In this document: positions 3,001-12,000 of the stretch, in pieces
How the letters are laid out: each line of letters starts with the position of its first letter
Position numbering within the stretch: the first letter of the stretch is position 1
Source: Microgenomates bacterium OLB23
GTDB taxonomy: Bacteria > Patescibacteriota > Microgenomatia > UBA1406 > HO2-37-13b
DNA: 64,000 bases
Direction: 5' to 3'
Assembly (NCBI GenBank): GCA_001567245.1
Contig: LMZU01000016.1
Span: forward strand, 467 to 64,466
Program-made: the position numbers

Positions 3001-6000
3001 AGTAAAACCAGTCTCTCAATTTGACCGAAGACTTGCTACCATAGTGCAAAAAATGGTTACCACCCTTCGTAACGAAAAAGACCCCGAAGGCGTAGGGCTC
3101 GCAGCAAATCAAGTAGGGCTCAACATGGCTCTTTTTATTATGCAGTCCTCAAAAAAAGCTCCATTGTATGTTTGCATTAACCCCAAAATTACCTTTATAG
3201 AAAAGATTCAAAACCCTACACCACAAAAAAAAGGTAAAAAAACTACCCGCGCACGACTTGAAGGGTGCCTGTCTATACCCCGTTTATGGGGATACGTAGC
3301 ACGAAGCCCCAAAGTGCATCTTACCTATGCAGATCTAGATGGTACAATTCATGAAAAAGCGTTCACTGGCTTTGAGGCAATTATAGTTCAGCACGAAATG
3401 GACCACCTTGACGGCATTGTATTTACACAGCGCGTTATAGAACAAAAAAGAAAGTTATACCAAGAAATTGACGGAGAGCTGGAACCGCTTAAGATTTAAC
3501 TGCTGCTTGTGCGGCTTTTCTGTCTGCAAGAACCTTCTTAAGATCTGCAGGAAGATATGCAAGCTTTACTATTGGTGAGCGACCATCGAGAATATCTTTA
3601 CGAATTCGCTTAATAACTTTGGTCGCGAGGAGAACTTTTTTAGCAACACCCTCTTCGAGAATAGTCACCACTTGAAGATTAGGACTAAACACACGATTCA
3701 TTTTTTGTGCTCTTTTTTTCCAACGACCACCCGCCACACCACGATGGTGCGTATGAGTTCTGCCGTGAAGTGATGATTTTCCTGATACGTAGCAGTTTGC
3801 CATGGGGTATATAATATCAAAATTACTCAGCAAAATCAATTATAATAGGCATATGGTATTGAGCGAGCTTTTTACTAATCCGGTTGGTGCAGTGCTTTTT
3901 TTGCTTTCTATTGTTGCAGCAGTCACGGTACATGAGTTTGCTCATGCTAAAACTGCTGATAATCTTGGCGACCCTACTCCTCAGCTTCAGGGGCGTGTTA
4001 CACTCGATCCCCGTTCACACTTAGACCCAATTGGCTCTCTGCTATTTTTACTTTTTGGCTTTGGTTGGGGAAGGCCAGTACCATACGATCCATATAACCT
4101 TAAGAATCCTCAAAAAGATGCCGCCATGATTGCATTGGCAGGCCCCTATCTAATTTTGGCATGGCGTTGGCTGCCGGGGTTGCGCTGCATATTTTTGGCG
4201 CAGAGTTTGCCCGCACAAACATACTGGGGGCATTCCTCTCAATATTTACCTCTACTAACATAATTTTAGGCGTGTTTAACCTTATTCCTGTGGCACCACT
4301 TGACGGTTTTCGCATTGTAGGAGGCTTGGTGCCACATGATCAGCTAGAAGAGTGGCTCAGTCTTGAGCGGTATGGATTTATTATCTTAATATTCTTAATT
4401 CTTCCGTTTGCTGGGGGTCGCTCTATCTTGCAAACCTTTATTGGGCCTGTTGTGAGCTTTTTTACGGGCATTCTGTTGCCATAAGATTCTTCTTAAAACG
4501 CGCTTACTTTATGCTATTAACTTGAGGCGGGTGTGGGGGTTGTAGTGTGACGATAATACCCTTTTATACATGCGTTGCCACTCACCTGATAGCCCTTTTT
4601 CTCGAAGTAATCTAAACAATCACCCCAATCGCTATCTGCATTCGTATCATCTTTATAGAATGCATCGACCTCTGTATCGCTTGCTGTTTGTGCAGATGTA
4701 GGCAGAGGAGCTGTGGTAGGTACTATATCTGACTCGCCACTTGTTGGTTCTGGCACTACTACGGCCGTTGTAGGAGTAACATCAAGCACTACCCCACCTG
4801 TACCATCGGTAGATTGCCCACCTGCTGCCCCATCGGGACTGGCTGGTACTTCGATTAGTGTTTCTTCGCTGCCAGCAGGGGCCGCACAATAACTTTGATT
4901 TGCTACAAGAGGCTGCATAATAACTGTATGCTCATAATTACCATCTCCAAGCGCAACTGGTGCCCCGGCCTCTGAGTGAATAAACACCAAATTACATTCG
5001 CTTAGTCCACCAGGAGGCATACTCGAAGCCAGTAAGTTACCCTGCTCTTCTGTACGATTTGTCCATGTACAGCGGGCTTCTGTGTCTTTTGTACGCACAC
5101 AGGTAAAGTTTTCTACTGCACTCGCCTGAGAGCCTCGCTTTTGGACAATACGAAACCCAATATAGATAAGCAGTAATGAAAGAATAAACCCTATACTCAA
5201 CGCGGCTATTTTTTGTGTTTTTTTTGTTCATATGCGTAACATTGATTTGGCACCTGCGCCAACTAACATAAAGCCAAGACCGATAATACCATATAAGAGG
5301 AAATCTTCAACAACACCGGTGCGCGGGAGCTCAGAAGGAGTTTTTGCACTCCCTGTTGAGGTTTTGGGTTTAGTAGATCCTCCTACTGTAACCACAGCCT
5401 CTCCGTTAAGCGCACATTGAATAAGATCGGGTGCATCGGTAGATTTTTCTGAAATGTTAGACTCATTGGTTTCACCGGTTTCGCAGGTATATGTAAAGGT
5501 TGTGGTACCGGCAGCTTTTGCTTTACATTGCACCGACGCAAGCACTCCCTCGCCGGTTACCGACTCACCAGGACTCGATACAACACCAGCAATGTAAATT
5601 TTTCCCGGTTGAGTAAACTCTTTAATGCCAATTTCTAAAAAATCACCATCGGTAATGCTCTCAATCTCACAAATGGCAGGATCATATTCTATGAGCGCAT
5701 CAACACCAAGGATTTCTTTTTCTTCGGCGTCGGCGACTATGTCTAGTGTAAATGTTTCGCCGACATTGGTACTTATGGTTGTAGGGTCAAATTTGAGCGT
5801 CGCCGCAAATGCTGCGTTGAGGCGCGGCGACAGAGCAAAAAAAAGCCGCAAACACTATTACTATGGTAATTCTTTGAAATTTCATGCTTAATTTGCTTGC
5901 AAGGTAACGCCCTGCACACTACTCAAAATATCTTGGGTTTGTGTATTCATAAGATTGGAGTCGGTTGTGTGATTGGGGCTAAACACCAGCTCAACCGACG

Positions 6001-9000: not shown

Positions 9001-12000
9001 TTTACAGGGTAACCACGAAGCAATCGTGCCATTTTGCACGGTAAGGGCTATATCTGCTGCAGATATTTTTTCGGTTGCATTCTCTGGTTTAAGCACAATA
9101 CGAAATGGGCTATCGTTTAACGTTCCTGTTGCTGGTGCAAACTCTACAACCACCTTGCTTTGAGCAGCGCTTGATTGCAACACATACCGATTTACAAACG
9201 CACCAAACATAACAAGCGCAGCAAGACCCACAACAGTAAAAAATGGCACTCGTGGTGAAACAGTACTATTAGTCATGATTTGTTTTCCAGATTGTTAAAT
9301 CTACACTGTTAATTGTTCCATCACCATTTACATCACAGGCGTTACCTTCACTGCGAATTGAGCTACGTAATACCTCCCAGTCACGCACATCTATTTTTCC
9401 GTCACAGGTACAATCACCCTTTGCTTTGGTTGAACAATTACCTCCAGGAACTGGTGTTATAGGAGCTCCAGGACCACCAACTACTGGTGGTGTAATGGTT
9501 ATAGAGGGTATGGGCGCCGAAGGCGAAAAGGTAATAACTACTGGGGCTGTATCAATATCGGGCACTATTTGTTGCGAGCCAACCGCCTGCCATTGTGAGG
9601 CATCGGCGAGCATAACTCTTGCATCTGAATTGCCACCATTAGCGGGAACTGTGCGTTTAAATCCAACTGTTGTAATACATTTTGTACCTGTGGCAAGCAG
9701 ATTGTCGCCTTTTATCGTGCCCAGGGTAAGTTTGAGTCCTTGTGGAACGGGGGTGTATTTCATTACATAATCGAGTCCAAACGATGCCTGGCTGCAAAAA
9801 CCTTCTTGTGTAATGCCAACCAAGTTAAGATTTTCAGAAAAACTCATTGCACCCGTTACTCCCGCAAGTCCTGTGGTGGGCTCTGTAGAGCCAAAAATAT
9901 GCACCAAACAAAGTGAATCGGGCTTGTCGTTGCATTGTATGGCTTTTTCAGAAATAAATATCTTCATGTTGGGGGCTAACTGTGCTTTTGAGGGTATGAG
10001 ATAGGTATTAATTGCCTGCCAAAAAAACAGCGTGGATAACACAAAAACTAGCCCTAGGACGGTGAGCCTGGTTGTCTTATTCATTATGTTCTTATTTTTG
10101 TGCGACGAACGCTATTCTAAATATATTAAAGTCTAACAAATCTACAACTCCATTTGTGTCGAAATCGCATGCGGTTGTTGCAGCGCTACCACTAAGCTCT
10201 TTACGAAGTAAATTAAAATCAGAGAGGTCAACTTTTCCGTCTTTTGTACCTTCTGTGGGGCCTGAACAGTCACCTGCAGTACCCCCTCCTCCGCTGGGTG
10301 GGGTTACTTTGCCGCTTACTGGTGTAATGGGGTTTGGATCAACAAAACTTCCTGTTGGATTAGCATTTCCTGGTGTTGTATTGGGTACATTTGGAATGTT
10401 TGGGTTACCTCCCCCTCCCGGTGGAGTTGTGGGTTGTGGTCTGGGGTTTTGAGGCCTATTGGAACGGCAACATGGATTGGCTTGTTGAGCAGCCGGTTTG
10501 CACGCAAGTTCCTGGTCCGTTAATATTGCTGCATCGAGCATTAGAGAGACATCGTAATCCTCTAGGTAGATCACATGCAGTGCCACAAGCCTGAGCCTCA
10601 ACTTGTTGGGCAGAGAAAGCGAAGAAAGAAAAAAGAATTGCAACAAAAAAAAAGTGTCCACCTACTCATTCATTCAGAATAACATACATTCAATTTTATT
10701 GTCAATGAATTTGTGACTATTGACCGATGAGATTTCTTAACACCTGATTAGATGATCGAAGAATAAAGTTGTACAGGTTTGGATTTTCGGTTCTTATGGT
10801 ATTCCCCAGCTGAACACCAGATGATTGTGGAAATCTAGGACACGATACCTCGTCGACACACCCGCAAAATTGTGGGTAATGAAAGCAGAATAGTTTTGGG
10901 TCGAGACAACTTACAAATCCTGACCCGCCTGGGATTGGGTATCTTCCACATAGGTCTGGATTAGGTTTACAAGCATAATAAGTTGGACAGGAACTTTGGC
11001 TACCATCACACCCCTCTTTCCTACGATCATCAGAACAGAATGATTTATCAATACAGTAACACTTCACTTGTTCATTTCGATCCGGAATCGAAGCACATCC
11101 ATCTGTTTGACGAACACACTTACAATCTCCCAATGGATCCTGAGTATCACAAGGTTGATTTTTTTTCAGATCTAAACATGATGTGCCGTTTGAACATTGC
11201 GGTAAGCCTCGACCGCAAACTTCAAGGCATCCCTGAGCAACAACTAGTGTAGGGCTTGGATTAATTCTTACAATGCCAGATATTGGAATAGTAGTTAGAC
11301 CAACAAAAATCGACGTGGGTATGGGTTTACATAATCTAGGATTACCCTGTTCACACCTTAATCCAGAACAACAATTAACCGCGCCACCACATACATCATT
11401 TTGCTGCAAGCAAACTGGCGTTGGAGTAACTGTTAATGAAGGAGTTAATGTTGGTGTATTTTGACCAGTTGTTGGAGTTGGGGTAGCAGTTGCGGTAGCT
11501 CCTGCACAACAAAATTGTTTGTACTCCTGTACCCACTCGCTCAATGAGCGACACCTACACTCTCCACTTGGAAGTCGTGGCATTTCGCGACCATCTGCGC
11601 AAATCATGGGTTTAGAATACTTCTTGTGGTCTTCACAATAGTAAAAAACCACTAACTCCGCATTTGTTTTGAGTATCGCCGAGTCGACTCTCGACATATC
11701 TCCTTATAGCTCTGTCACTATCTGTACAAGCTGGAATATTCGCTGGAGCAACTTGTGCCTCTGACGATGTGGTAAATGATGTGTTTAGATTGCTAGATAT
11801 GAGCGAGGTGACAAACAGTGAAAGACCAACCAAAAGTGTACCAGCAATAGCAGCAAACCGTGTGTCCATTGCTTAAGTAAAACACAGCTAAAAAACTCTG
11901 TCAATAGGAATGTTGGTGGCAGGCATAAAAAAAGGCCCCGGATGGGGCCTTTTTTTTAATTTCACAACAAGACACGGTCTTATTTAAGCTCCGCTTTACC

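What the first reader, a model, noticed from the sequence alone, without database searches (positions are those of the whole stretch)
4517..11904. Second, minus-strand operon of the same cohesin-dockerin family
Eight to nine tightly packed genes have 0-8 nt gaps or ATGA overlaps. Two promoters lie at 11876-11904 and 10676-10705. The genes encode two Cys-rich secreted proteins, three dockerin-tailed proteins (10092, 9269, 7377) and four cohesin-like carriers (8776, 6529, 5888 by TM; 5228 by LPRTG). Two proteins (7377, 9269) appear to carry both a cohesin-like module and a dockerin. That is the signature of adaptor scaffoldins able to build multi-tier assemblies.
Basis: partly seen in the sequence, partly recalled or inferred. 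Interest (0 to 1): 0.8.

Follow-up and report, generated by a model that had tools for sequence, protein, structure and literature searches.

The report
Enzyme-free cohesin-dockerin surface operon in CPR bacterium
This is a real, conserved eight-gene operon of an ultrasmall (Microgenomates/CPR) bacterium encoding cell-surface proteins that probably snap together through cohesin-dockerin "plug and socket" modules; it carries no enzymes, so it is probably a surface or adhesion scaffold and not a cellulosome, and six one-base frameshifts blur its gene boundaries in this window.

Summary
The finding is largely right. Region 4517-11904 (minus strand) is a conserved operon just downstream of rplJ-rplL. 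Four related Microgenomates genomes carry it intact (one contig stops within the sixth gene). It has eight genes, not the 10 or more ORFs seen here, because six single-base insertions split or truncate five genes. ORF 8776 is the N-terminus of the 7377 gene, not a separate carrier.

- **Pfam hits:** Cohesin in g6 and g7; Dockerin in g3 and g4. g2 falls just below threshold.
- **g5:** a cohesin paralogue (hhalign 99.6%).
- **g7:** carries an LPRTG sorting signal, and a sortase gene lies in the window.
- **g3 (9269):** has a cohesin fold by AlphaFold/Foldseek plus a dockerin, so it is a genuine adaptor architecture.
- **g4 (8776+7377):** carries TM, two beta-sandwich modules, an Ig-like domain and a dockerin. 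One module shows moderate cohesin similarity; the other is weak.
- **Promoters:** both proposed promoters are conserved in relatives and sit 6-7 nt from the start codons.
- **Cargo:** no catalytic or carbohydrate-binding modules were found.

Most likely this is an enzyme-free, membrane- and wall-anchored cohesin-dockerin surface assembly. Binding and function are inferred, not shown. It is a new variant of a known kind, of moderate interest.

The parts
11927..11957 (-). Intrinsic-terminator hairpin of rplL (GGCCCC-ATCC-GGGGCC, 11949-11934), flanked by A8 and T7. It marks the upstream boundary of the operon.
   Evidence: Read directly from the sequence. The hairpin is conserved in L001 and L006. 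The consensus scanner did not list it.
11877..11904 (-). Promoter P1: TTGACA, 17-nt spacer, TG-t-TTTACT. The g1 ATG (11869) begins 7 nt after the -10 hexamer, a leaderless-type geometry.
   Evidence: Sequence. The -35 element, TG and -10 block are invariant in 4 relatives, including L004 where the upstream neighbour differs. Too weak at the -10 for the consensus scan.
10717..11869 (-). g1: secreted Cys-rich protein, 383 aa after correction, with 34 Cys and knottin-like C-C-CC-C-C spacing. It has a signal peptide and no dockerin. A +1 insertion in the T6 run at 11643-11648 splits it into ORFs 11869 and 11697.
   Evidence: Only the N-terminal 40 aa match relatives by tblastn. The gene evolves fast, pN about 0.49. 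No Pfam or NCBIfam family.
10676..10705 (-). Promoter P2: TTGACA, 18-nt spacer, TG-t-TATTCT. The g2 ATG (10669) lies 6 nt downstream.
   Evidence: Consensus scan 10 of 12 with TG. Conserved in 4 relatives.
10092..10669 (-). g2: signal peptide, small Cys-knot, Pro/Thr/Gly linker and a divergent dockerin (nt 10122-10244). 191 aa after removing two +1 insertions (T9 run 10645-10653 and about 10483).
   Evidence: Pfam Dockerin_1 E 2.7e-4, 21.5 bits against a cut-off of 22.9. NCBIfam dockerin_GC hint. The C-terminus is homologous to the g3 dockerin. Corrected model. Homologues are 191-192 aa.
9269..10084 (-). g3: N-terminal hydrophobic helix, cohesin-fold module (about nt 9515-9967), PT linker and Cys-containing dockerin (nt 9284-9433). 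271 aa and intact. Adaptor-type architecture.
   Evidence: Pfam Dockerin 4.2e-8. PDB dockerin hits. AF2 model with domain pLDDT about 60-88. Foldseek top hits are cohesins. Sub-threshold Pfam Cohesin hits in relatives P0032 and P0035. pN 0.13 against pS about 0.7.
7377..9276 (-). g4: one gene of 632 aa, split in the window by a +1 insertion at 8778-8781 into ORFs 8776-9276 and 7377-8708. Order of parts: TM/signal helix; beta-sandwich D1; beta-sandwich D2, interrupted by a PT-rich and Cys-knot insert; Ig-like domain; dockerin (nt 7410-7544).
   Evidence: Homologues are 584-645 aa and read through the junction. Pfam Dockerin 3.1e-8. AF2 of orthologue P0005. Foldseek hits include CipA Coh9-X-DocII 3kcp/4fl4 among generic beta-sandwich hits. 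D2 cohesin similarity.
6529..7380 (-). g5: N-terminally membrane-anchored cohesin paralogue (cohesin-like region about nt 6781-7203) with an extra C-terminal beta domain. 283 aa and intact.
   Evidence: No Pfam hit. tblastn against g6 orthologues gives E 1e-14 to 1e-18. hhalign to the g6 family 99.6% and to the g7 family 94.6%.
5888..6520 (-). g6: N-terminally membrane-anchored single-cohesin protein (cohesin nt 5930-6298). 210 aa and intact.
   Evidence: Pfam Cohesin 1.7e-8. All 13 database homologues carry PF00963 and none is named. The TM anchor is conserved in distant loci.
5228..5885 (-). g7: signal peptide, cohesin (nt 5438-5788), linker, LPRTG sorting signal (nt 5315-5329), hydrophobic segment and basic tail. 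218 aa after removing a +1 insertion in the T8 run at 5837-5844.
   Evidence: Pfam Cohesin 1.7e-11. An LPxTG/LPxSG/LPxAG signal is conserved in 10 of 11 homologues. Corrected start MKFQRITIVIVFAAFFALSP....
4517..5231 (-). g8: N-terminally membrane-anchored protein with a beta-rich ectodomain (distant relatives look FN3-like by eye), a PT linker and a small C-terminal Cys domain. 237 aa after removing a +1 insertion in the A8 run at 5218-5225. Its start overlaps the g7 stop (ATGA).
   Evidence: g8-like genes follow the cohesin pair in L018, L020 and L021. No Pfam or NCBIfam family.
61366..61836 (+). Sortase gene (TLQTC active-site motif). It lies outside the operon but is the likely enzyme that anchors g7.
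   Evidence: Pfam Sortase 1.3e-24. Motif scan.

Best explanation
This is an eight-gene surface-protein operon of a Microgenomates (Roizmanbacteria-like, CPR) bacterium. It is transcribed from two conserved sigma-70-like promoters just downstream of rplJ-rplL.

The operon encodes the parts of a non-cellulosomal cohesin-dockerin assembly:
- **Anchors:** three single-cohesin proteins. g5 and g6 are held in the membrane by an N-terminal TM helix. g7 is probably linked to the cell wall by sortase through LPRTG.
- **Dockerin-bearing proteins:** g2 (Cys-knot plus dockerin), g3 (cohesin fold plus dockerin) and g4 (two beta-sandwich modules, Ig-like domain and dockerin).
- **Accessory proteins:** g1 (large Cys-rich secreted protein) and g8 (TM-anchored).

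The inferred mechanism is this. After Sec export, the Ca2+-loaded dockerins of g2, g3 and g4 plug into the anchored cohesins. Because g3, and probably g4, also carry a cohesin module, a second tier can be stacked on the first. The result would be an enzyme-free protein lattice or stalk on the cell surface. Its most plausible role is adhesion or host contact for an episymbiotic ultrasmall cell.

What is shown: gene structure, conservation, domain identities, the sorting signal, the sortase gene and purifying selection. What is inferred: that these cohesins bind these dockerins, the order of assembly, and the adhesive role.

The six frameshifts in the window are most likely assembly indel errors.
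For: - **Synteny and intact orthologues:** L001 and the complete 938-kb genome in L026 hold all eight genes intact. L004 and L006 hold them up to the contig end.
- **Taxon:** record titles name Microgenomates or Roizmanbacteria.
- **Domains:** Pfam Cohesin in g6 and g7, Dockerin in g3 and g4, g2 just below cut-off. g5, g6 and g7 are mutually homologous by hhalign, 94.6-99.6%. The g3 N-domain has a cohesin fold. g4 D2 is cohesin-like, and relatives carry Pfam Cohesin plus Dockerin in one chain.
- **Anchoring:** LPxTG-type signals and TM anchors are conserved, and a sortase lies in the window.
- **Conserved cassette:** the order [TM-X-Ig-dockerin] then [TM-cohesin] then [cohesin-LPxTG] recurs in more than 10 divergent Microgenomates loci. 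This argues for functional coupling.
- **Selection:** pN is 0.11-0.27 against a saturated pS of 0.70-0.82 for g3-g8.
- **No enzymes:** no catalytic or CBM family appears in any of the eight proteins.
- **Promoters:** both are conserved.
- **Frameshifts look like errors:** similar indels interrupt unrelated genes elsewhere in the window (M50 peptidase, DUF2207, an RHS protein, a cohesin-LPETG gene). Sequence downstream of each shift is still 57-83% identical to orthologues.
- **Expression in the group:** cohesin and dockerin proteins of a Microgenomates MAG were detected by metaproteomics (bioRxiv 10.1101/2021.08.21.457207).
Against: - No cohesin-dockerin interaction was tested or modelled, and the pairings are unknown.
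- The g2 dockerin is below the Pfam cut-off.
- The g3 and g4 cohesin modules are invisible to the Pfam Cohesin model.
- g4 D1 is supported only weakly, and the full-length g4 model is of modest quality, pLDDT 60.8.
- g3 and g4 have long N-terminal hydrophobic helices. These could be uncleaved anchors, which would change the topology of any assembly.
- Six frameshifts in 7.4 kb is a higher density than in most of the window, so real inactivation in this strain cannot be excluded.
- The adhesion or host-contact function is conjecture.
Confidence: 0.6

Rival explanations
1. It is the scaffold part of a true cellulosome-like or amylosome-like enzyme complex. Dockerin-bearing glycoside hydrolases or other enzymes encoded elsewhere in the genome would dock onto the g5, g6, g7 and g3 cohesins to degrade polymers.
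For: This is the classical role of cohesin-dockerin systems. A Microgenomates MAG expressing cohesin and dockerin proteins was interpreted this way, and its genome had glycoside hydrolases (bioRxiv 10.1101/2021.08.21.457207). Only 64 kb of roughly 0.9 Mb is visible here.
Against: None of the three dockerin proteins of the operon carries a catalytic or carbohydrate-binding family. The Pfam-scanned dockerin proteins of the plus-strand array carry VWA or no recognisable family. There is no CBM-bearing multi-cohesin scaffoldin. The S8 peptidase next door has no dockerin hit. The conserved cassette in other Microgenomates loci is likewise enzyme-free, as far as scanned.
Confidence: 0.15
2. The modules are real but do not pair with each other. 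The dockerin-like EF-hand modules and cohesin-fold beta-sandwiches would act independently, for example as Ca2+-dependent glycan- or host-binding adhesin domains. The locus would then be simply a surface-protein island.
For: Non-cellulosomal dockerins and cohesins of unknown partners are widespread (Peer et al. 2009, as cited in PMC10066038; the content is from my own knowledge). A dockerin-domain envelope protein that is essential in a Saccharibacterium was proposed to target host glycans (PMC10633639). The operon's dockerins are atypical: the g3 dockerin has four invariant Cys and the first loop of the g4 dockerin departs from the canonical pattern by eye.
Against: Dockerin genes and cohesin genes are tightly adjacent, conserved and translationally coupled across more than 10 divergent genomes. 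The numbers roughly match: three dockerins and three anchored cohesins. Two anchoring modes for proteins that consist of little but a cohesin are hard to explain unless the cohesin is a receptor for a partner.
Confidence: 0.15
3. In this particular genome the operon is switched off. It would be either decaying into pseudogenes or phase-variable through slippage at A/T homopolymers in the 5' ends of the surface-protein genes.
For: There are six +1 insertions in 7.4 kb. Three sit in long runs (T9, T8, A8) within the first 5-20 codons of g2, g7 and g8, the classical position of contingency tracts. Many long ORFs elsewhere in the window are intact.
Against: Three of the six sites are short runs (AA, T4, T6) that do not slip appreciably. 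Indels also break housekeeping-type genes (M50 peptidase, DUF2207) and other loci at homopolymers. The long tracts are not conserved in relatives. Sequence after each shift shows no decay and no extra stops. All of this points to assembly error.
Confidence: 0.1

Closest known systems
Cellulosome anchoring and adaptor scaffoldins (e.g. Acetivibrio thermocellus CipA Coh9-X-DocII with OlpB/SdbA; Ruminococcus flavefaciens ScaB/ScaE/ScaH)
   Same: Cohesin and dockerin modules are present. A cell-wall-anchored cohesin protein uses a sortase signal as R. flavefaciens ScaE does (from my own knowledge). Some proteins combine cohesin and dockerin, like adaptor scaffoldins. An Ig-like module sits directly before the g4 dockerin, reminiscent of X-Doc. 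Foldseek hits include 3kcp, 4fl4, 2zf9 and 8ajy.
   Different: There is no multi-cohesin primary scaffoldin, no CBM and no dockerin-bearing glycoside hydrolases. Each anchor has a single cohesin. Two anchors are N-terminal TM proteins. The cargo is Cys-knots and beta-sandwich modules. The host is a CPR bacterium with a genome of about 0.9 Mb.
Non-cellulosomal cohesin-dockerin systems (Clostridium perfringens toxin/GH84 complexes, Archaeoglobus fulgidus cohesin 2xdh, Ruminococcus bromii amylosome; survey of Peer et al. 2009)
   Same: Cohesin and dockerin modules are used outside cellulose degradation. Some proteins carry both modules. Foldseek hits include 2xdh, 2jh2 and 2w1n.
   Different: Those systems still tether enzymes or toxins, or are orphan single modules. 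Here a complete, enzyme-free set of anchors and ligands is packed into one conserved operon. The descriptions of the named systems are from my own knowledge; the survey paper was not available.
Cohesin/dockerin proteins reported in other CPR bacteria (Ca. Shapirobacterales metaproteome; essential dockerin protein SEML1_0315 of Southlakia epibionticum)
   Same: The same superphylum, and in the first case the same supergroup (Microgenomates). These are surface or envelope proteins with cohesin or dockerin domains, and expression or essentiality was shown there.
   Different: Those reports mention domains in passing and interpret them as cellulosome parts or glycan binders. No operon structure, anchoring logic or adaptor architecture was described. 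Orthology to this operon was not tested.

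Membership tests
Cohesin domain (Pfam PF00963) | Sequence match to the family model at or above the curated cut-off (24.1 bits) | tested here: met
   g7 scores 44.9 bits and g6 35.2 bits. Not met for g5, g3 or g4. g5 is linked by hhalign at 99.6% to the g6 family.
Cohesin domain (Pfam PF00963) | Nine-stranded beta-sandwich (jelly-roll) fold superposable on solved cohesins | tested here: met
   Tested for the g3 N-domain only. Nearly all of the top 34 Foldseek PDB hits are cohesins, E down to 2e-8 and TM up to 0.75. For g4 the whole-chain search is inconclusive: cohesin-containing chains appear among integrin and pilin hits. 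g5, g6 and g7 were not modelled.
Cohesin domain (Pfam PF00963) | Binds a dockerin through its 8-3-6-5 strand face | not testable with these tools
   No complex prediction or binding assay was available.
Dockerin type I (Pfam PF00404) | Sequence match at or above the curated cut-off (22.9 bits) | tested here: met
   g4 scores 34.1 bits and g3 33.7 bits. All 8 g4 homologues and all 12 g3 homologues match at E of 1 or better. g2 at 21.5 bits is just below the cut-off but is homologous to the g3 dockerin.
Dockerin type I (Pfam PF00404) | Two tandem Ca2+-binding loop-helix repeats (D-x-[ND]-x-D-G-x-x-x-[ND]-x-x-D) | tested here: met
   The second loop is canonical in g3 (DVNGDGTINSVD) and g4 (DLNFDGIVNAVD). 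The first loops are present but variant: g3 DCTCDGKIDVRD, g4 D-IPAGKQDGVCNSAD, g2 TKDGKVDLSD then DFDTNGVVDLLD. Ca2+ binding itself was not tested.
Cellulosome | Dockerin-bearing glycoside hydrolases or other CAZymes, and a CBM-bearing multi-cohesin scaffoldin | tested here: not met
   No catalytic or CBM family appears in any operon protein. The Pfam-scanned dockerin proteins of the plus-strand array carry VWA or no recognisable family. Every cohesin protein has one Pfam cohesin. Only the 64-kb window was examined.
Adaptor scaffoldin (cohesin plus dockerin in one polypeptide) | At least one cohesin module and one dockerin module in the same chain | tested here: met
   g3 is met at fold level plus HMM level. 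g4 is probable but inconclusive. Relatives of g4 carry Pfam-significant Cohesin plus Dockerin (L007).
Adaptor scaffoldin (cohesin plus dockerin in one polypeptide) | Bridges two other components by binding both | not testable with these tools
   No interaction data.
Sortase substrate (LPXTG cell-wall sorting signal) | C-terminal LPXTG, a hydrophobic stretch, a positively charged tail, and a sortase in the genome | tested here: met
   g7 ends ...ELPRTG VVEDFLLYGIIGLGFMLVGAGA KSMLRI. The signal is conserved in 10 of 11 homologues. A Pfam Sortase hit (1.3e-24) with TLQTC lies at 61366-61836. Cleavage and linkage were not tested.

The most novel reading that the evidence does not exclude
Microgenomates, and perhaps other CPR bacteria, may have repurposed the cohesin-dockerin plug-and-socket into a self-contained, enzyme-free surface assembly of two or more tiers, an 'adhesosome'. 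Membrane- and wall-anchored single cohesins would hold adaptor proteins (g3, g4), which display Cys-knot, Ig-like and, in the neighbouring array, VWA modules that bind the host cell. This would be the attachment apparatus of episymbionts for which no attachment apparatus is described in the papers found.
Probability: 0.3. Interest if true: 0.7.

Novelty: new variant of a known kind. Interest (0 to 1): 0.45.

Why it matters
How ultrasmall CPR bacteria other than Saccharibacteria hold on to their hosts is unknown, and in Saccharibacteria type IV pili are the main established player.

This work points to a compact set of surface proteins with a predictable and easily testable binding logic. The set is conserved and under purifying selection, sits next to ribosomal protein genes, and recurs as a cassette across Microgenomates. 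That gives concrete candidates for recombinant binding assays, for antibodies or labelling in enrichment cultures, and for reinterpreting "cellulosome" annotations in CPR metagenomes.

It also carries a practical warning. This assembly contains frequent single-base indels, so ORF-level readings of it, including gene counts and "separate" carriers, are unreliable without comparison to relatives.

Tried and rejected
- **Exact-sequence look-up of the window's g6 protein:** found nothing. Homologues had to be used to reach related contigs.
- **Pfam or NCBIfam families for g1, g5 and g8, and for the N-terminal parts of g3 and g4:** none found.
- **Profile searches against PDB sequences:** only the dockerins were found.
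- **hhalign of the g3 N-domain against the operon's cohesin families:** no signal, 1% or less. Its cohesin assignment therefore rests on the structure model and on weak hits in distant relatives.
- **Whole-chain Foldseek of the g4 orthologue:** dominated by generic multi-beta-sandwich proteins (integrins, pilins). It cannot assign its modules, and per-domain structure searches were not possible.
- **g4 D1 as a cohesin:** only weak, sub-threshold signals, so left open.
- **Phase variation as the cause of the frameshifts:** considered and judged unlikely.
- **Cellulosome reading:** rejected for this operon because there are no enzymes or CBMs.
- **RNA genes, tRNAs or meaningful repeats inside the region:** none found.
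- **Literature searches:** no description of this cassette was found. Peer et al. 2009 could not be read.
- **"Uncultured Gammaproteobacteria" titles of several related MAG records:** disregarded as mislabels, because related records are labelled Microgenomates or Roizmanbacteria.

Full report
**What is in the sequence**

The minus strand between 4517 and 11869 carries a run of co-directional ORFs. It begins just downstream of rplJ (12428-12991) and rplL (11980-12402) and a clear terminator hairpin (11934-11949, flanked by A8 and T7). Pfam finds Cohesin in ORFs 5228 (E 1.7e-11) and 5888 (1.7e-8). It finds Dockerin_1 in 7377 (3.1e-8), 9269 (4.2e-8) and, just under the cut-off, 10092 (2.7e-4; 21.5 bits against 22.9). 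NCBIfam adds nothing beyond dockerin-type hints. No RNA genes, tRNAs or notable repeats lie in the region.

**Gene structure: eight genes, broken by six indels**

A homologue search with the 443-aa product of ORF 7377 returned proteins of 592-645 aa. Their N-terminal third matches ORF 8776-9276, and they read straight through the junction (window ...EGTLYTF*/NPSQTVTYNC...; relatives ...EGTLYAFNPSQTVTYNC...).

Related contigs show the same locus as exactly eight genes after rplJ-rplL. The contigs are L001 (a 149-kb MAG contig), L004, L006, and L026 from a complete 938-kb genome, OZ246401.1. L004 and L006 end at a contig edge, after g7 and within g6 respectively. The products are 422-463, 191-192, 271-273, 584-645, 276-283, 210-211, 217-223 and 228-235 aa. 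A convergent M50 peptidase, L28 and def follow, as in the window.

DNA and protein alignments locate six single-base insertions in the window:
- the T6 run at 11643-11648 (g1);
- the T9 run at 10645-10653, and about 10483 (g2);
- 8778-8781 (g4);
- the T8 run at 5837-5844 (g7);
- the A8 run at 5218-5225 (g8).

Removing one base at each site restores eight uninterrupted proteins of 383, 191, 271, 632, 283, 210, 218 and 237 aa, with proper signal peptides. ORF 8776 is not a separate carrier. ORFs 11869 and 11697 are one gene. The true starts of 5228, 4517 and 10092 are 5885, 5231 and 10669.

With these models the junctions are 7 nt, an 8-nt overlap, ATGA, 8 nt, 2 nt and ATGA. g1 and g2 are 47 nt apart.

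**Are the frameshifts real?**

Similar indels, mostly at homopolymers, interrupt unrelated genes elsewhere in the window:
- the M50 peptidase (around 4113-4146);
- a DUF2207 membrane protein (C6 run at 53988);
- an RHS-repeat protein (T9 run at 48197);
- a cohesin/LPETG gene of the plus-strand array (A8 run at 20191).

The long tracts are not conserved in relatives. The sequence after each shift is still 57-83% identical to orthologues and has no further stops. I conclude these are most likely assembly errors. The density in this operon, six in 7.4 kb, is nevertheless higher than in much of the window, so I keep real inactivation or phase variation as a minor rival.

**Reality of the genes**

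Against orthologues in L001 and L026, synonymous sites are saturated (pS 0.70-0.82). Non-synonymous divergence is 0.11-0.27 for g3-g8, comparable to rplJ at 0.12. g1 and g2 evolve faster, with pN 0.31-0.50. All database homologues of g3, g4 and g6 are unnamed or "hypothetical".

**Promoters**

The site at 10705-10676 (TTGACA-18-TATTCT, preceded by TG) is a 10-of-12 consensus match. The site at 11904-11877 is TTGACA-17-TG-t-TTTACT. Its -10 is too weak for the scanner, but the sequence shows it directly.

Both sites are conserved block for block in four relatives, while the surrounding intergenic DNA diverges or, in L004, is different altogether. In the window the start codons lie 7 nt (g1) and 6 nt (g2) after the -10 hexamer. 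In relatives the distances are 6-7 nt for g1 and 11-15 nt for g2. This implies leaderless or near-leaderless mRNAs, which is an inference. There is no terminator between g1 and g2, so one or two transcription units are possible.

**Domain identities beyond Pfam**

*g5.* It has no Pfam hit but is a paralogue of g6. tblastn gives E 1e-14 to 1e-18. hhalign gives 99.6% to the g6 family and 94.6% to the g7 family.

*g3.* An AlphaFold2 model built on 12 homologues has mean pLDDT 68.7, about 60-88 across the N-domain. Residues about 40-190 match solved cohesins almost exclusively: nearly all of the top 34 Foldseek hits, best 6kge_A with E 2e-8 and TM 0.75. An exhaustive profile search shows that the full-length g3 family is small, with 9 clusters at E below 1e-30. 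Its most distant members, P0032 and P0035, give sub-threshold Pfam Cohesin hits at the N-domain. g3 is therefore a cohesin-plus-dockerin protein.

*g4.* I modelled the orthologue P0005 (pLDDT 60.8, about 66-84 over most of the folded domains). The model shows:
- a TM helix;
- a beta-sandwich D1 (aa 40-175);
- a beta-sandwich D2 (aa 189-237 and 337-412), split by a disordered PT-rich insert that in the window also holds a Cys-knot;
- an Ig-like domain (aa 420-536);
- the dockerin.

Whole-chain Foldseek hits include CipA Coh9-X-DocII (3kcp, 4fl4; E about 1e-8), but integrins and pilins score similarly. No family member hits Pfam Cohesin.

Three results still tie D2 to cohesins. Shorter relatives of g4 (about 420 aa) have a single N-terminal module that is a cohesin: L007 scores 27.1 bits, above the cut-off, and the family profile is 91% related to the g7 cohesins by hhalign. 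That profile matches the first half of D2 at 64.6% (E 6e-5). A lineage-specific cohesin HMM hits D2 residues about 183-241 at 6-18.5 bits in 8 of 9 members, against a maximum of 4.0 in 460 shuffled controls. D1 gives only weak signals. I rate "g4 carries a cohesin-derived module" as probable, not shown.

**Anchoring**

g7 ends in ELPRTG, a hydrophobic stretch and KSMLRI. LPxTG, LPxSG or LPxAG signals are conserved in 10 of 11 homologues, and the N-terminal TM anchors of g6-like proteins are conserved as well. A sortase gene (Pfam 1.3e-24, TLQTC motif) lies at 61366-61836.

**Wider distribution**

A genome-collection scan with the g4 profile found 21 loci. Where the labels are credible, they come from Microgenomates or Roizmanbacteria MAGs.

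In more than ten divergent loci the gene order recurs: [TM - variable module - Ig-like - dockerin], then [TM - cohesin, about 200 aa], then [signal peptide - cohesin - LPxTG, about 220 aa]. A g8-like TM protein often follows. This conserved adjacency of dockerin and cohesin genes is the strongest indirect argument that they are partners.

The window's plus-strand array (about 19.7-36.8 kb) holds paralogous cohesins and dockerin proteins with VWA cargo. "Same family" is therefore correct.

**Mechanism**

*Shown:* the parts list, the anchors, conservation and purifying selection.

*Inferred from established cohesin-dockerin biology:* the exported dockerins of g2, g3 and g4 bind the surface-anchored cohesins of g5, g6 and g7 in a Ca2+-dependent manner. 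The cohesin of g3, and probably g4, can accept a further dockerin, which would allow two tiers.

No operon protein has a catalytic or carbohydrate-binding family. The product is therefore not a cellulosome but an enzyme-free surface scaffold. An adhesive or host-contact role fits the CPR lifestyle and the VWA cargo next door, but it is conjecture.

One uncertainty concerns topology. The long N-terminal helices of g3 and g4 may be cleaved signal peptides (a conserved ...S-K-A/A-Q motif follows them) or permanent anchors.

**Comparison with the known**

The modules are those of cellulosomal anchoring and adaptor scaffoldins and of non-cellulosomal systems (C. perfringens, A. fulgidus, the R. bromii amylosome; from my own knowledge, together with Foldseek hits 2xdh, 2jh2 and 2w1n).

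Within CPR I found two reports. Cohesin and dockerin proteins were noted in a Microgenomates metaproteome and read as a cellulosome. A dockerin protein is essential in a Saccharibacterium. I found no description of this cassette or its anchoring and adaptor logic.

I file it as a new variant of a known kind.

**Verdict**

- Interest is moderate, 0.45.

Noticed in passing
window 4113-4146, 20191-20198, 48197-48205, 53988-53993 (and the six sites inside the operon): Single-base indels, mostly at homopolymers, split genes across the window: the M50 peptidase (3802/4161), a cohesin/LPETG gene (19724/20182), an RHS-repeat protein (47716/48194) and a DUF2207 protein (53673/53980). The assembly seems indel-prone, so ORF-based readings of this window need checking against relatives.
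   Followed up: partly
window 11869-11904 and 10669-10705; L001, L004, L006 equivalents: Both conserved promoters place the -10 hexamer only 6-7 nt before the ATG in the window, with no Shine-Dalgarno sequence in between. In relatives the distance is 6-7 nt for g1 and 11-15 nt for g2. This suggests leaderless or near-leaderless transcripts in this CPR lineage.
   Followed up: partly
window 19724-36764 (+): The plus-strand array holds four or more cohesin proteins (19724 with LPETG, 21146, 24778, 34156). Its dockerin proteins include two with VWA domains (21715-24726, 26578-27651). ORF pairs 28467/29239 and 34796/36147 overlap and may also be frameshifted.
   Followed up: partly
window 61366-61836 (+): A sortase gene (Pfam 1.3e-24, TLQTC motif), the probable anchoring enzyme for the LPRTG and LPETG cohesin proteins.
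   Followed up: yes
window 61883-63867 (+): Two adjacent genes hit ATP-citrate-lyase/citryl-CoA-synthetase-type domains (Citrate_bind 4e-53, ATP-citrate synthase ATP-grasp 2e-30, CoA-ligase). This is unexpected central-carbon equipment for a small CPR genome.
   Followed up: no
window 37138-40993 (+): A cluster of a 7TM_transglut membrane protein followed by three ATP-grasp proteins (ATPgrasp_ST, then two RimK-like). It looks like a peptide- or amino-acid-ligase module of unknown product.
   Followed up: no
window 45002-52778 (-): Large secreted proteins: an RHS-repeat protein (48194-49744) that appears frameshifted against its neighbours, and a 979-aa protein (49839-52778) with a weak dockerin-like loop near its N-terminus (DTNNDGVINLFD; Pfam 8.6e-4).
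   Followed up: no
g3 dockerin, window 9284-9433; alignment A2: The g3-family dockerin has four invariant cysteines (C217, C225, C227, C250) around its Ca2+ loops. The g2 and g4 dockerins also contain Cys. This may be a disulfide-stabilised dockerin variant.
   Followed up: no
N-termini of g3, g4 and their relatives (window 9960-10084, 9150-9276; L007, L011, L016, P0012): After the N-terminal hydrophobic helix, the dockerin proteins share a short motif: N-x-Y-[LV]-x-x-S-[KS]-A-[AQ]. It may be a processing site, and it would decide whether these proteins are released or stay membrane-bound.
   Followed up: no
loci L005, L006, L008-L010, L012, L014, L015, L018, L020, L022, L024 (record titles): Many TPA metagenome-assembled genomes carrying this Microgenomates-type cassette are titled 'uncultured Gammaproteobacteria bacterium'. 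This is almost certainly a placeholder or a mislabel.
   Followed up: no
window 13736-15888 (+): A subtilase (S8) with a separate fervidolysin-like prodomain gene lies just upstream of rplJ on the opposite strand. The neighbourhood is conserved in all relatives. It is a possible processing protease for the surface proteins, but no link was tested.
   Followed up: no
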